Sequence record: MZ726792.1
From: Escherichia phage vB_EcoM_ASO1B
Length of the DNA: 64,000 bases
Direction: 5' to 3' (one strand)
Every line of letters begins with the position of its first letter. Position 1 is the stretch's first letter. The translations under genes were made by a program, and so were the position numbers. Below, piece after piece: positions 25,861 to 29,485 of the stretch. Under the pieces are notes generated by a model. That model did not search any database and was not told the origin of the DNA. It saw only the letters and a program-made list of their open reading frames with translations.

Positions 25861-27048
25861 ATGGCAGTAGGTGAAATTCAAATTAGTGCCTTGCCTCAAG
25901 CAGCCTTACCAATTGACCTTAGTGATATCTTCCATCTTAAACAAGGTATTGAGGATAAGAGATGCACTCTTGAGCAATTACTTGCTCCACACTCAAGCCT
26001 AAGAAATAACCCTCATGGTGTTACTAAAACACAAATTGGTTTAGATAACGTTATCAATGCTCTTCAGTTAGTTGCTGCAAATAACTTATCAGACGTTACT
26101 AATGTAGCTGAGGCAAGAGCAAATCTACAGATTATGTCTTCAGAAGAGGTTAATAACCTTGTCCAGCAACATATCAAGGACAAGAGTAACCCACACAATA
26201 CAACTAAGGCACAGGTTGGTTTAAGTAATGTTCAGAACTGGACAACATCTAATCTGTATAACGAAGATGCAGATAAGTATGCTACAGCAAGAGCAGTAAA
26301 TAACTTGTACAAGGCTGTTCAGGCTTCTTATCCAGTAGGTACTATCCATCTTTCTATGAACTCTGCAAACCCTTCTACATACTTAATTTGTGGAGGTACT
26401 TGGGAGTTAGTTTCAAAAGGTAGAGCATTGGTTGGTTATGACTCTGACACAAGACCAGCAGGTTCTGTATTTGGTGCTTCAACTGTCACTTTGTCAGTTA
26501 ATAACATGCCTCAACACTCTCACTCTGTGTCTCTTAGTGGTGGTGGTCATACTCATAATGCAACGGTGTCAATTTCAGCTTTTGACTATGGGACTAAGAC
26601 TACCAACTCTTTTGACTATGGAACTAAGACCACTAACACAACTGGTAACCACAACCATGTTGGTAGTGGGTCAACAAGTTCTGCTGGTGCTCATAACCAC
26701 AGATTGACCTATGAATCAGGTGGTGGTTTATCGGAAAGACCTGCAATGGTTTGGTCTTCAAGGAATGACCAATCATGGTACTCAGCAGATGCTGTCTGTG
26801 AAGTAGCTGGTGCACACACTCACTCTTTCAGTGTTACCACTAACACAACTGGTAACCACAACCATACGGTTGGTATTGGTGCTCATAGCCACACAGTTGG
26901 TATTGGTTCGCATACACATAATGGTACTGTAACAGTTTCTTCTTCTGAACATACGCATAGCGGGAACACTAATAGTGTTGGTGGAGGACAAGCTTTCAAC
27001 ATTGAGCAGCCATCCTTCGTACTGTATGTATGGCAGAGAACAGCTTAA
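25861..27048 (+). CDS. tail fibre protein with His-rich HxH repeat tip
   Basis: Repeated GNHNH/AHTHS/GAHSHTVGIG motifs and conserved C-terminal end (YVWQRTA); internal tandem duplication SFDYGTKTTN x2. Confidence 0.7.
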   Translation: MAVGEIQISALPQAALPIDLSDIFHLKQGIEDKRCTLEQLLAPHSSLRNNPHGVTKTQIGLDNVINALQLVAANNLSDVTNVAEARANLQIMSSEEVNNLVQQHIKDKSNPHNTTKAQVGLSNVQNWTTSNLYNEDADKYATARAVNNLYKAVQASYPVGTIHLSMNSANPSTYLICGGTWELVSKGRALVGYDSDTRPAGSVFGASTVTLSVNNMPQHSHSVSLSGGGHTHNATVSISAFDYGTKTTNSFDYGTKTTNTTGNHNHVGSGSTSSAGAHNHRLTYESGGGLSERPAMVWSSRNDQSWYSADAVCEVAGAHTHSFSVTTNTTGNHNHTVGIGAHSHTVGIGSHTHNGTVTVSSSEHTHSGNTNSVGGGQAFNIEQPSFVLYVWQRTA

Positions 27049-27057
27049 TTTCTTTAC

Positions 27058-27079
27058 AGGGGCTTGATAGCCCCTTTTA
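27058..27079 (+). terminator. rho-independent terminator after tail fibre 1
   Basis: AGGGGCT-TGAT-AGCCCCT followed by TTTT. Confidence 0.6.
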
Positions 27080-27094
27080 AGAGGAAAATTTATA

Positions 27095-29485
27095 ATGGCA
27101 GATTACAAGTTGAGTGAATTAAACTCAATCGATACAATCCGTTCAGATGACCTTCTTCATGTCAGGGTTAAAAAGAGACCTGAAATGCTAGGTGATGAAG
27201 ACCGTCGAATGACCTATCAAGATTTCTTAGCATCTTTTAAACTTGAAAGATTTGTTCAGATTGCTGGTAGTACTATGACGGGTGACTTAGGGATTGTTAA
27301 GTTACTCTATGGTGGCAAGGCAGTATTTGACCCAACAGGTTCTTCTGAGATTACTATTGGGGATGTTTTAAAGACTTTTAAAATCAACGCAAATGGCCTT
27401 AAACTAACTATCGCAGATGCTTCAAGGTCAGCAACTGTTTATCATACTCTGAATAAACCAAGCCCTAATGAACTTGGTATGAGAACTAATAAAGAGAATG
27501 ATGCAAGATACTCAAAATTAGCTGTAAATAATACCTTTAGAGGTACTCAAGCTATCCTCTCTGACAATGAAGCGCTCATTATTAAAAATATCACTCAAGG
27601 TGCCCCACTCTATCTTCGTGGTCAAGATGCAGATGGTACTAACAGATGGTATCTAGGTAATGATAATAGGGGCACAAATAATCTTGTATTGAAGAATGTA
27701 AAGTCTGACGTTTCAATTGCTATTTTAGAGAATTTGGTGACAGTCAACAGAACTCTTCAAATTGCTGGCCAAGTTCAGCCTTCAAGTTTTGCTAACTTAG
27801 ATGCTAGGTATTTTACCCAGACAGCAGCTAATCAGAGATTTGCGCAGTTAGCTGGTAATAACACTTTTACTGGTACTAACACTTTCTCTAATTTTGTTGC
27901 TAAGAAGAATGCTGAAGCCATCACTCTACAAAATGTGGACACTGCCCCCTCTTTATATATTCGAGCAAGAAAGTCAGATGGGAATTATAAGTGGTACATT
28001 GGTAATGACGGTGATGAGAACATTTTAAAAATCTATAACTATCTAACAAAAACACAAGTCTCACTAGGTAACACTATTGCCATGAGCAAAACAGTTCAAA
28101 TTGATGGTCAAGTACAACCTTCTGATTGGACTAACATTGATTCTAGATATATTCCGGCAGCCACTTTGAGTAATCTCCCTAAACTTAATGTGTCTAATAC
28201 TTTCACAAATGTGCAAACTATTGTATCTAACAACGAGGGTTTGGTATTAAGGAACTTGACACAGGGGCGGCCACTATATATCCGTGGTGTTGATACTGAG
28301 AATGTTTCTAGATGGTGGTTAGGTGTAGGTGGTTCAAACTCTAATGTGGTAACACTTAACAACAACTATTCTAACACTAAAATCGCACTTGGTGGCTCAT
28401 CAGTAATGACTAACAAGAGCTTAGCTATTACTGGTCAAGTACAACCTTCTGACTTCTCTAACTTAGATGCTAGATACTATACCCAAGCTGCCGCAAACGC
28501 AAGATATATGCTTGCAAGCATCACTGGTTCGGCTTCTGAAGCAGATGGTGGTGGTGGTGTTGCATGGGATGCAAAAACAGGTCTTTATAAGGTTACTAAC
28601 ACCACTGGACGGTATTCTTCACTTGTATATCACATGTTTTTAGGGACTGGTTCTACACCGTCTGCACAATTAAAGTTTTCGTTTAAAAATGGTGGGATGT
28701 GGTATAGAGCATCAAGAGATGCCTATGGCTTCGAAGTTAATTGGTCTAAAGTTTACACGGAAGCACAAAAACCAACCCCTTCAGAGATTGGTGCATACAC
28801 TAAAGCTGAAACTGACCAGAAAATTGCAACAGCAATTAGTGACTCTACAGACCTTAATAAAATCTATCCAGTAGGTATTGTGACATGGTTTAACAGCAAT
28901 GTTGACCCTAATACAGCACTTCCTGGTCTAACTTGGACGTACCTGAACAATGGTGTTGGTAGAACTATCAGAATTGCAGCAGCAAACGGTTCAGATGTTG
29001 CTACAACTGGTGGTTCAGATTCTGTGACGTTAGCTGTTGGTAACTTACCATCACACACCCATAGTTTCTCTGCTACCACTTCATCTTTTGATTATGGTAC
29101 GAAGAACACTAATAGCACTGGTGGTCATACTCACTCTGTAAGTGGTACAACAAGTGCTGCTGGTAACCACGCTCACCACTTAGGTCTGTTATTGGTTAAT
29201 GGTGGTGATGCTCAGTATGGTTACACAACTGTTAGCAACAGCAAGACAAGAACTCTTGACTGGCTTGATAGAAAAGATAACAAATTCCCTAACACTAACA
29301 CAACTGGTAACCATACACACACATGGTCTGGTACTACAAGTAACACTGGTGCTCACACCCACTCTGTAGGTATCGGTGCTCACACTCATACAGTTAGTGG
29401 TAACACTGGTGGTACAGGTTCTGGTTCAGCATTCAGTGTTACTAACCAGTTCTACAAGTTAATGGCTTGGGTAAGAACTGCTTAA
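27095..29485 (+). CDS. long tail fibre protein with three internal ~100-aa repeats and paralogous His-rich tip
   Basis: Repeats beginning GQVQPS(D/S)..N(L/I)D(A/S)RY three times; C-terminus GNHTHTWSG...[18 protein letters not shown]...MAWVRTA parallels fibre 1. Confidence 0.7.
   Translation: [796 protein letters not shown]

What the first reader, a model, noticed from the sequence alone, without database searches (positions are those of the whole stretch)
25861..29485. Two paralogous tail fibres with His-rich HxH tips, an internal tandem duplication and triplicated ~100-aa repeats
Both fibre genes end in Gly/Thr/His-rich repeats (GNHNH, GAHTHS, GIGAHSHTVGIG) and a conserved C-terminus (VWQRTA / AWVRTA), resembling metal-binding receptor-binding tips. 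Fibre 1 carries a 30-bp tandem duplication (26581-26640, SFDYGTKTTN twice) that looks like recent slippage. Fibre 2 has three copies of a ~100-aa repeat starting GQVQPS. Such modular repeats are hotspots for host-range switching.
Basis: partly seen in the sequence, partly recalled or inferred. Interest (0 to 1): 0.5.

Follow-up and report, generated by a model that had tools for sequence, protein, structure and literature searches.

The report
Felix O1-type phage tail fibres
These are the short and long tail fibres of a Felix O1-like E. coli phage, both ending in the histidine-rich, metal-binding tip first solved for phage T4 gp37; they are real and correctly spotted but already described, and the "recent duplication" is an old, conserved part of the tip.

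Summary
The window is a Felixounavirus genome; the best DNA match is phage ASO1A at 97%. ORF 25861-27048 (395 aa) is the short tail fibre. ORF 27095-29485 (796 aa) is the long tail fibre. They are equivalent to Bas63 gp26/gp27, VpaE1 gp74/gp75 and Sf14 gp52/gp53.

Both C-termini match the solved T4 gp37 receptor-binding tip (PDB 2XGF, E 2e-26 and 2e-19), with 9 and 6 HxH motifs. The His-box reading is therefore right, but it was published in 2015 and twice in 2025.

The 30-bp tandem pair is real (26/30 nt identical; AFDYGTKTTN then SFDYGTKTTN) but not recent:
- It sits at the same position in all 30 relatives examined, in 2 to 4 copies.
- The differences between the two copies are shared by orthologues.
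- T4 gp37 has the same pair.

The three ~110-aa repeats are real Pfam gp37_trimer domains. They are ancient (33-42% aa and about 50% nt identity), and nothing suggests a different copy number in any of 120 homologues.

Variability is concentrated elsewhere: in the head domains (short fibre aa 283-316, long fibre aa 696-735) and in a swappable mid-shaft domain of the long fibre (aa 471-560).

Verdict: correctly observed, ordinary, already known.

The parts
25861..27048 (+). Short tail fibre gene (395 aa; orthologue of Bas63 gp26, VpaE1 gp74, Sf14 gp52)
   Evidence: ORF. phrog_2097 tail fibre E 1e-137. Pfam Gp10_C E 1e-18. PDB 2XGF E 2e-26 over aa 146-367. Annotated as tail fibre in ASO1A and other relatives.
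26287..26514 (+). Short fibre collar domain (aa ~143-218)
   Evidence: Aligns to the start of 2XGF and to the T4 gp10 C-terminal domain. Pfam Gp10_C. The only confidently modelled part of the AF2 monomer, pLDDT 72-87.
26515..26706 (+). Short fibre needle, outgoing strand (aa 219-282), with HxH at 219, 230, 264, 278
   Evidence: HxH positions. Residue-by-residue alignment to the T4 gp37 needle. H230 and H232 invariant in 28 homologues.
26578..26637 (+).
   Evidence: TRF period 30, score 97. 26/30 nt identical. Present in all 30 relatives with 2-4 copies. The homologous pair is in T4 gp37.
26707..26808 (+). Short fibre head domain (aa ~283-316), hypervariable, presumed receptor contact
   Evidence: Mean identity about 0.31 across 48 homologues against 0.8-0.95 elsewhere. 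Variable in length in alignment A1. Corresponds to the head of T4 gp37.
26809..26964 (+). Short fibre needle, returning strand (aa 317-368), with HxH at 319, 333, 342, 351, 364. Includes the 27-bp tandem array 26850-26914 (GNHNHTVGI / GAHSHTVGI / GSHTHNGTV).
   Evidence: TRF period 27. HxH list. Alignment to T4 [24 protein letters not shown].
26965..27045 (+). Short fibre C-terminal strand running back to the collar (…QPSFVLYVWQRTA)
   Evidence: Y389, W391 and R393 invariant in 28 homologues. pLDDT 89 in the last block. The chain doubling back is described for Bas63 and T4.
27058..27075 (+). GC-rich hairpin (AGGGGCT-TGAT-AGCCCCT) in the 46-nt spacer, directly upstream of the long fibre's Shine-Dalgarno sequence AAGAGGA
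   Evidence: Fold -16.8 kcal/mol, z -3.3. Stem kept in all 30 relatives while the loop and flanks vary. Not called a terminator by the scan.
27095..29485 (+). Long tail fibre gene (796 aa; orthologue of Bas63 gp27, VpaE1 gp75, Sf14 gp53)
   Evidence: ORF. phrog_4277 tail fibre, 1312 bits, full length. Pfam gp37_trimer x3, gp37_C, Phage_fiber. PDB 2XGF E 2e-19 and 8JU3 E 2e-21.
27095..27448 (+). Long fibre N-terminal baseplate-binding region (aa 1-118)
   Evidence: 98% mean identity across 120 homologues. The role is taken from the Bas63 cryo-EM.
27449..28432 (+). Three tandem ~110-aa shaft repeats (aa 119-224, 225-337, 338-446), each a linker plus a gp37_trimer domain
   Evidence: Pfam PF20744, 3 stretches, E 2e-59. 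Pairwise 33-42% aa and 47-52% nt identity, E 1e-14 to 1e-22. GQVQPS-type motif found 3 times in 107 of 120 homologues and twice in 13 (put down to sequence variation in the motif); no length change in this region.
28505..28774 (+). Long fibre mid-shaft variable domain (aa ~471-560), homologous to a Mu tail fibre domain
   Evidence: Pfam gp37_C E 9e-18. PDB 8JU3 residues 330-430. Lowest conservation, 0.50. aa 479-553 are replaced by an unrelated ~134-aa segment in the 843- and 855-aa variants.
28775..29044 (+). Long fibre collar domain (aa ~561-650)
   Evidence: 97% conserved. Aligns with the short fibre collar. Weak Pfam Gp10_C hit.
29045..29482 (+). Long fibre needle out (aa 651-695; HxH 654, 678, 692), head (aa ~696-735) and needle back plus C-terminus (aa 736-796; HxH 740, 754, 763; …MAWVRTA). 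Single FDYGTK unit at aa 665.
   Evidence: Head conservation 0.58 against 0.90-0.93 for the needle.

Best explanation
These are the two side fibres of a Felixounavirus (Felix O1-like) myophage: a short fibre of 395 aa and a long fibre of 796 aa.

Each presumably forms a homotrimer that is anchored by its N-terminus to the baseplate wedge, or to the 100-aa platform protein encoded just upstream.

Shafts:
- The short fibre shaft is a few helix-turn motifs of the form NPHxxTKxQxGLxNV.
- The long fibre shaft adds three ancient ~110-aa repeat domains and a variable Mu-fibre-like mid domain.

Tips:
- Both fibres end in a T4 gp37-type tip.
- It has a collar, then a needle in which each chain runs out and back, giving a six-stranded beta-structure.
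- The needle core is lined by HxH motifs. In T4 each motif binds one iron ion through six histidines.
- At the far end is a small variable head that contacts the receptor. For this genus the receptor is LPS core or O-antigen sugars.

Short tandem units:
- The FDYGTK decapeptides lie on the outgoing strand and the GxHxHTVGI nonapeptides on the returning strand.
- They are the periodic building blocks of the needle, inherited from the common ancestor shared with T4 gp37. They are not fresh slippage products.

Shown here: gene identity, homology to 2XGF, motif counts, the age and conservation of the repeats, and where variability lies.

Inferred from relatives: trimer state, metal binding, baseplate attachment and LPS as receptor.
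For: Identity and context:
- 97% DNA identity to Felixounavirus ASO1A. 239 phage records match, and the genes are annotated as tail fibres.
- The gene order is wedge 489 aa, wedge 285 aa, 100-aa platform, short fibre, long fibre. It matches the sizes reported for Bas63.

Homology:
- PDB 2XGF hits at E 2e-26 and 2e-19, with the HxH motifs in register.
- Pfam gp37_trimer x3, gp37_C and Gp10_C.

Literature on orthologues:
- Bas63 cryo-EM describes collar, needle and head with HxH motifs.
- The VpaE1 paper reports T4 gp37 homology of both fibres and a carbohydrate (LPS core) receptor.
- The Sf14 paper reports fibres of 391 and 792 aa and no chaperone homologues.

Repeats and variability:
- The decapeptide pair is conserved in all 30 relatives.
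- The three repeats are 33-42% identical.
- The heads and the mid domain are the least conserved parts.
Against: - The AlphaFold2 monomer of the short fibre was poor (pLDDT 56; needle and head below 50). Foldseek against the PDB gave no significant hit, so there is no independent fold confirmation here. This is expected for an intertwined trimer.
- Metal binding, trimer state and receptor were not tested for this phage.
- This short fibre has 9 HxH motifs, whereas the Bas63 paper counts 7. The number of metal sites is therefore uncertain.
- Which of the two fibres, and whether the head or the mid domain, decides host range is not established.
Confidence: 0.95

Rival explanations
1. One reading: the 30-bp tandem duplication in the short fibre is a recent replication-slippage event peculiar to this phage. 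It would make the locus an active site of host-range change.
For: - TRF detects two adjacent 30-bp copies at 87-89% identity.
- Copy number does differ between lineages, from 2 to 4.
- Within the window's own clade the copies are more alike (25-27/30) than in distant clades (18-21/30). This could reflect some gene conversion.
Against: - The pair is at the same position in all 30 relatives, including some only 61-70% identical overall.
- The differences that distinguish the copies (GCT vs TCT; ACT ACC vs ACC ACT) are shared by orthologous copies in L002-L011.
- The window's copy 1 and copy 2 are each closer to their orthologues than to the other copy on average (24.2 vs 23.0 and 24.7 vs 22.7 of 30).
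- T4 gp37 carries the homologous pair.
- The high nucleotide similarity is explained by nine conserved residues with few codon choices.
Confidence: 0.03
2. ORF1 is not a fibre but a gp10-like baseplate structural protein, as its only significant Pfam hit (Gp10_C) suggests.
For: - Pfam Gp10_C, E 1e-18.
- PDB hits to T4 gp10 at E about 2e-5.
- Weak Foldseek hits to gp10.
Against: - The gp10 similarity covers only the collar (aa 143-220).
- The much stronger hit is the gp37 tip over aa 146-367.
- The PHROG tail-fibre family covers the full length.
- Cryo-EM of the Bas63 and Sf14 orthologues shows a 430 Å fibre.
Confidence: 0.03
3. The HxH needle tips are mainly rigid structural spacers. Host specificity of the long fibre would be set chiefly by the variable mid-shaft Mu-fibre-like domain (aa 471-560), binding sideways rather than through the terminal head.
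For: - The mid domain is the least conserved long-fibre segment (0.50). It is replaced wholesale in the 843- and 855-aa variants, while the tip stays 75-95% identical.
- It is homologous to a domain of the Mu tail fibre (8JU3).
- After host challenge, a Salmonella Felixounavirus acquired changes at residues 497 and 534 of its gp37-like fibre.
- The Sf14 authors also raise the possibility of receptor contacts proximal to the tip.
Against: - The head domains are also strongly variable (0.31 and 0.58).
- Head cassettes move between phages: one Felixounavirus short fibre has a T4-like head.
- In T4 the head is the receptor contact.
- The numbering was not mapped onto this protein.
Confidence: 0.2

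Closest known systems
Felixounavirus / Ounavirinae short and long tail fibres (Bas63 gp26/gp27, VpaE1 gp74/gp75, Sf14 gp52/gp53, ASO1A_074/075)
   Same: - Same gene order, downstream of the 489-aa and 285-aa wedge proteins and the 100-aa platform.
- Same lengths: 395 and 796 aa here against 391 and 792 aa in Sf14.
- 97% DNA identity to ASO1A.
- Same collar, needle and head tips, with 6 HxH plus an extra His in the long fibre.
   Different: - This short fibre carries a head variant (RLTYESGGGLSERPAMVWSSRNDQSWYSADAVCEV) and 9 HxH motifs, against the 7 counted for the Bas63 short fibre.
- ASO1A's short fibre is 390 aa with a different head.
- These are allelic differences within the family.
Phage T4 gp37 long tail fibre receptor-binding tip (PDB 2XGF)
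   Same: - Homologous collar, needle and head.
- HxH motifs aligned in register.
- The same FDYGTK decapeptide pair and the GxHxHxVxIG nonapeptide repeats.
- A C-terminus of the same type: hydrophobic residues, then R-x-A.
   Different: - Only 36-38% identity.
- 9 and 6 HxH motifs here, against 7 in T4.
- The tip sits on a single-protein fibre, not on a four-protein fibre (gp34 to gp37).
- The heads are unrelated in sequence.
- No gp38-like chaperone is found next to the genes.
- The receptor in this genus is LPS, not OmpC.
Phage Mu tail fibre (PDB 8JU3) / Pfam gp37_C (PF12604)
   Same: Long fibre aa 477-581 align to residues 330-430 of 8JU3 at E 2e-21.
   Different: Here the domain sits in mid-shaft, followed by a gp37-type tip. 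No Mu-type chaperone gene follows it.

Membership tests
T4 gp37-type receptor-binding tip (collar-needle-head, HxH metal sites) | Significant sequence homology to the solved tip, 2XGF | tested here: met
   E 2e-26 (short fibre aa 146-367) and 2e-19 (long fibre aa 647-775). 36% and 38% identity by BLASTP.
T4 gp37-type receptor-binding tip (collar-needle-head, HxH metal sites) | Series of HxH motifs on both the outgoing and the returning strand, in register with T4's seven | tested here: met
   Short fibre 4 + 5 and long fibre 3 + 3 HxH motifs. They align to the T4 motifs. H230, H232, H351 and H353 are invariant in 28 homologues.
T4 gp37-type receptor-binding tip (collar-needle-head, HxH metal sites) | Collar domain before the needle, and a conserved C-terminal strand returning to it | tested here: met
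   Pfam Gp10_C and gp10 hits on aa 143-220. Conserved ...Y-V-W-x-R-T-A with Y389, W391 and R393 invariant.
T4 gp37-type receptor-binding tip (collar-needle-head, HxH metal sites) | Predicted fold matches 2XGF | tested here: inconclusive
   The AF2 monomer had pLDDT 56, with the needle below 50. Foldseek against the PDB gave no hit at E<=0.001.
T4 gp37-type receptor-binding tip (collar-needle-head, HxH metal sites) | Homotrimer with iron (or another metal) bound octahedrally by six histidines per site | not testable with these tools
   Known for T4 and inferred for Bas63. Needs metal analysis or a structure.
Felixounavirus short and long tail fibre pair | Synteny: wedge proteins, 100-aa platform, short fibre, long fibre, in a Felixounavirus genome | tested here: met
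   The same order is seen in metagenomic locus L031.
Felixounavirus short and long tail fibre pair | Full-length similarity to fibres of recognised members | tested here: met
   phrog_4277, 1312 bits, over aa 1-796. phrog_2097, E 1e-137. 29 IMG/VR loci at 61-99% identity. 120 long-fibre homologues at 72% identity or more.
Felixounavirus short and long tail fibre pair | Presence in the virion as fibres of about 430 Å and 630 Å that bind LPS | not testable with these tools
   Shown for Bas63, Sf14 and VpaE1, not for this phage.

The most novel reading that the evidence does not exclude
The needle may be a length-adjustable module. The outgoing strand carries 1-4 FDYGxK decapeptides. The returning strand carries a matching number of GxHxHxVxI nonapeptides.

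The two sets would expand or contract together. That would tune needle length, and so how far the head reaches through O-antigen or LPS, while keeping the number of metal sites. In the one example inspected by eye, total HxH stays at 9 when the decapeptide count rises from 2 to 4.

A second possibility is that the swappable mid-shaft domain of the long fibre is an additional, sideways receptor-binding site.
Probability: 0.2. Interest if true: 0.35.

Novelty: already known. Interest (0 to 1): 0.12.

Why it matters
It matters little beyond correct annotation. The two fibres and their gp37-like HxH tips have been described for this genus by sequence (2015) and by cryo-EM (2025).

Two practical points follow:
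- For host-range engineering or prediction in Felix O1-like phages, the segments to swap are the head domains and the long-fibre mid domain. The conspicuous repeats are not the place to look.
- Short tandem repeats inside fibre needles should not be read as recent slippage without checking relatives.

Tried and rejected
1. AlphaFold2 monomer of the short fibre from a 28-sequence alignment. Mean pLDDT was 56 and the needle and head were unmodelled. A Foldseek search of the PDB with this model gave no significant hit. It is uninformative, because the tip is an intertwined trimer.

2. NCBIfam gave nothing for either fibre or for the neighbouring small ORFs.

3. I looked for a fibre chaperone in the two ORFs downstream (29565-29762 and 29759-30130). 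They hit only PHROGs of unknown function, plus a very weak Rz-like hit.

4. The T4 tip paper (PMC2996694) is not held in the library. T4 domain details are therefore taken from the Bas63 paper and from the 2XGF alignment.

5. A self-BLAST of the long fibre listed no off-diagonal hits. Segment-against-segment BLAST and MAFFT were used instead.

6. I rejected the idea that frameshifted homologue P0051 reflects slippage at the tandem repeat. Its frameshift is about 55 codons upstream, at an A-run, and is probably an assembly error.

7. An automatic split of the HxH motifs into 'out' and 'back' by the largest gap misplaces the head in variants with 3-4 decapeptides. It was therefore not used for any claim.
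Full report
**What is there**

The finding's limits coincide exactly with two adjacent plus-strand ORFs: 25861-27048 (395 aa) and 27095-29485 (796 aa). A 46-nt spacer separates them.

Megablast of the region against the phage collection finds 239 records, almost all Escherichia, Salmonella or Shigella Felixounavirus. The best is vB_EcoM_ASO1A at 97% identity over 91% of the query, with both genes annotated 'tail fiber protein'.

The upstream genes are:
- a 489-aa Baseplate_J protein;
- a 285-aa baseplate protein;
- a 100-aa protein.

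The first two have the sizes reported for wedge 2 and wedge 1 in the cryo-EM study of the Felixounavirus Bas63. There they are followed by the long-fibre platform (gp25), a short fibre (gp26) and a long fibre (gp27). The window is therefore a Felix O1-like myophage, and these are its short and long tail fibres.

**Checking the observation**

*HxH motifs.* The short fibre has 24 histidines, 18 of them in nine HxH motifs (aa 219, 230, 264, 278, 319, 333, 342, 351, 364). The long fibre has six HxH motifs (654, 678, 692 as HAHH, 740, 754, 763).

*Similarity between the two proteins.* It is confined to the C-terminal ~206 residues: 37% identity, E 5e-22. This is domain-level paralogy, not whole-gene paralogy.

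*The 30-bp tandem repeat.*
- TRF reports it at 26579-26637 with score 97.
- In frame it is AFDYGTKTTN followed by SFDYGTKTTN (aa 240-259).
- The copies are identical at 26 of 30 nucleotides.

*A second tandem array.* TRF also reports a 27-bp array at 26850-26914 (GNHNHTVGI / GAHSHTVGI / GSHTHNGTV).

*GQVQPS and the ~110-aa units.*
- GQVQPS occurs at aa 225, 338 and 447.
- The three ~110-aa units are aa 119-224, 225-337 and 338-446.
- Only two of them begin with that motif. The third GQVQPS opens a linker into a different domain.

**What the tips are**

Both proteins hit the crystal structure of the T4 gp37 receptor-binding tip (2XGF):
- the short fibre at E 2e-26 over aa 146-367;
- the long fibre at E 2e-19 over aa 647-775.

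The HxH motifs, the FDYGTK units and the GxHxHxVxIG repeats align in register.

The segment before the needle matches the C-terminal domain of T4 gp10 (Pfam Gp10_C), which is the collar.

In a 28-sequence alignment reaching Erwinia, Yersinia and Pectobacterium phage homologues, several residues are invariant: H230, H232, H351, H353 and the C-terminal Y389, W391 and R393.

The Bas63 paper describes exactly this architecture for both fibres:
- a collar;
- a six-stranded needle, formed because each chain doubles back at the head;
- HxH motifs that coordinate iron in T4;
- a small head.

The homology of both fibres to T4 gp37 was already reported for VpaE1 in 2015. It was reported again for Sf14 in 2025, with fibres of 391 and 792 aa and no chaperone homologues.

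The three tips are about equally distant from one another:
- short fibre vs T4: 36%;
- long fibre vs T4: 38%;
- short vs long fibre: 37%.

The two tips in this genome are therefore old lineages, not a recent in-genome copy.

My own structure test was inconclusive. An AF2 monomer reached only pLDDT 56, with the needle and head below 50. Foldseek found nothing significant. That is expected for an intertwined trimer.

**The 'recent slippage' claim**

I took the DNA of ASO1A and of 29 IMG/VR Felixounavirus loci whose short fibres are 61-99% identical to the window's.
- Every one has at least two xFDYGxKxTx units at the same position.
- Four loci have three units and three loci have four.
- The nucleotide differences that distinguish copy 1 from copy 2 in the window recur in the orthologous copies of L002-L011. 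These are GCT vs TCT in the first codon, and ACT-ACC vs ACC-ACT.
- On average each window copy is closer to its orthologue than to its neighbour.
- T4 gp37 has [19 protein letters not shown] at the homologous place.

The pair therefore predates the genus and is a structural period of the needle.

The long fibre has a single unit. Relative to it, the short fibre carries about 21 extra residues on the outgoing strand (one HxH plus one decapeptide). It also carries two extra HxH units on the returning strand. This fits the Bas63 statement that the long fibre's needle is the shortest.

Copy number does vary between lineages, so expansion and contraction have happened. It has happened on the timescale of genus diversification.

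**The ~110-aa repeats**

- Pfam calls three gp37_trimer domains (E 2e-59).
- Pairwise they are 33-42% identical in protein and 47-52% in DNA. That is too diverged to drive homologous recombination.
- Among 120 long-fibre homologues the GQVQPS-type motif is found three times in 107 and twice in 13. I attribute the 13 to sequence variation in the motif. There is no length change in this region.
- The Bas63 authors likewise report substitution, not change in repeat number.

**Where variation really lies**

Mean identity to the window protein across homologues:

| Fibre | Segment | Mean identity |
|---|---|---|
| Long | N-terminus | 0.98 |
| Long | Three repeats | 0.75-0.77 |
| Long | Mid domain, aa 471-560 | 0.50 |
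| Long | Collar | 0.97 |
| Long | Needle | 0.90-0.93 |
| Long | Head, aa 696-735 | 0.58 |
| Short | Head, aa 286-315 | about 0.31 |
| Short | Most other segments | 0.75-0.95 |

In the 843- and 855-aa long-fibre variants, aa 479-553 are replaced by an unrelated ~134-aa segment. The flanks stay 75-95% identical.

The mid domain is homologous to a Mu tail fibre domain (8JU3, E 2e-21; Pfam gp37_C).

One metagenomic Felixounavirus short fibre (P0016, locus L031) has a head almost identical to that of T4 gp37 (YIEAWNGTGVGGN...). This shows that head cassettes move between phage groups.

Host-challenge mutations reported at residues 497 and 534 of a Salmonella Felixounavirus gp37-like fibre may fall in the mid domain. 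I did not map them onto this protein.

**Mechanism**

Shown here:
- gene identity;
- homology to the T4 tip;
- conserved HxH positions;
- ancient repeats;
- variable heads and mid domain.

Inferred from T4, Bas63, Sf14 and VpaE1:
- Each fibre is a homotrimer fixed by its N-terminus to the baseplate.
- The needle is stiffened by metal ions held by three HxH pairs per site.
- The head binds LPS core or O-antigen sugars.
- Binding triggers baseplate rearrangement and sheath contraction.

**Novelty**

This is already known, and interest is low. The only mildly open points are two:
- whether needle length is tuned by coordinated changes in the short tandem units;
- whether the long-fibre mid domain is a second binding site.

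Noticed in passing
window 27058-27075 (spacer 27049-27094): A GC-rich hairpin (AGGGGCT-TGAT-AGCCCCT; -16.8 kcal/mol, z -3.3) sits between the two fibre genes, just before the long fibre's Shine-Dalgarno sequence. The stem is kept in all 30 relatives while the loop varies. Several relatives lack the following T-run, so it may not be a simple terminator. It could set the short-to-long fibre expression ratio or stabilise the mRNA.
   Followed up: partly
window 29503-29548: A long stem-loop lies just downstream of the long fibre stop (the fold of 29486-29564 gives -28.2 kcal/mol, z -5.5) with no U-tract. The ASO1A record annotates the equivalent as a terminator. A promoter-like site (TTGACT-17-TAATAT) overlaps it at 29493-29521.
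   Followed up: partly
P0016 / locus L031 4001-5176: A metagenomic Felixounavirus short fibre has a head domain nearly identical to that of T4 gp37 (HYIEAWNGTGVGGN...SSYA..YRAGG). Tip identity to T4 is 50% overall, against 36% for the window's short fibre. This is evidence that head cassettes are exchanged between T-even long fibres and Felix O1-like short fibres.
   Followed up: partly
window 28529-28753 (long fibre aa 479-553): In the 843- and 855-aa long-fibre variants this segment is replaced by an unrelated ~134-aa segment, while both flanks stay 75-95% identical. It is a discrete swappable cassette in mid-shaft.
   Followed up: partly
locus L001 (ASO1A) 7151-9574: The GenBank long-fibre CDS of ASO1A starts 69 nt upstream of the conserved SD+ATG. 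It overlaps the short fibre's end and the hairpin, so its start codon is probably mis-annotated.
   Followed up: partly
window 25861-27048, copies at 26578-26607 and 26608-26637: The glycine codon in the two decapeptide copies tends to be the same within a genome (GGA/GGA or GGG/GGG in most of L002-L011). This hints at occasional gene conversion between the copies, but the sample is too small to test.
   Followed up: no
P0051 (metagenomic homologue); window ~26415-26420: A 281-aa truncated short fibre in a 1.7-kb assembly is frameshifted at an A-run near aa 186 and reads into the +2 frame ORF 26432-26707. This is probably an assembly or sequencing error and is unrelated to the tandem repeat.
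   Followed up: yes
window 29565-29762 and 29759-30130: Two small conserved ORFs follow the fibres (65 aa, phrog_402; 123 aa, phrog_4038; the latter has a very weak Rz-like spanin hit). Their function is unknown. The 65-aa homologue in L031 is labelled PF26925 Phage_PM2_Gpl. No recognisable fibre chaperone is present.
   Followed up: partly
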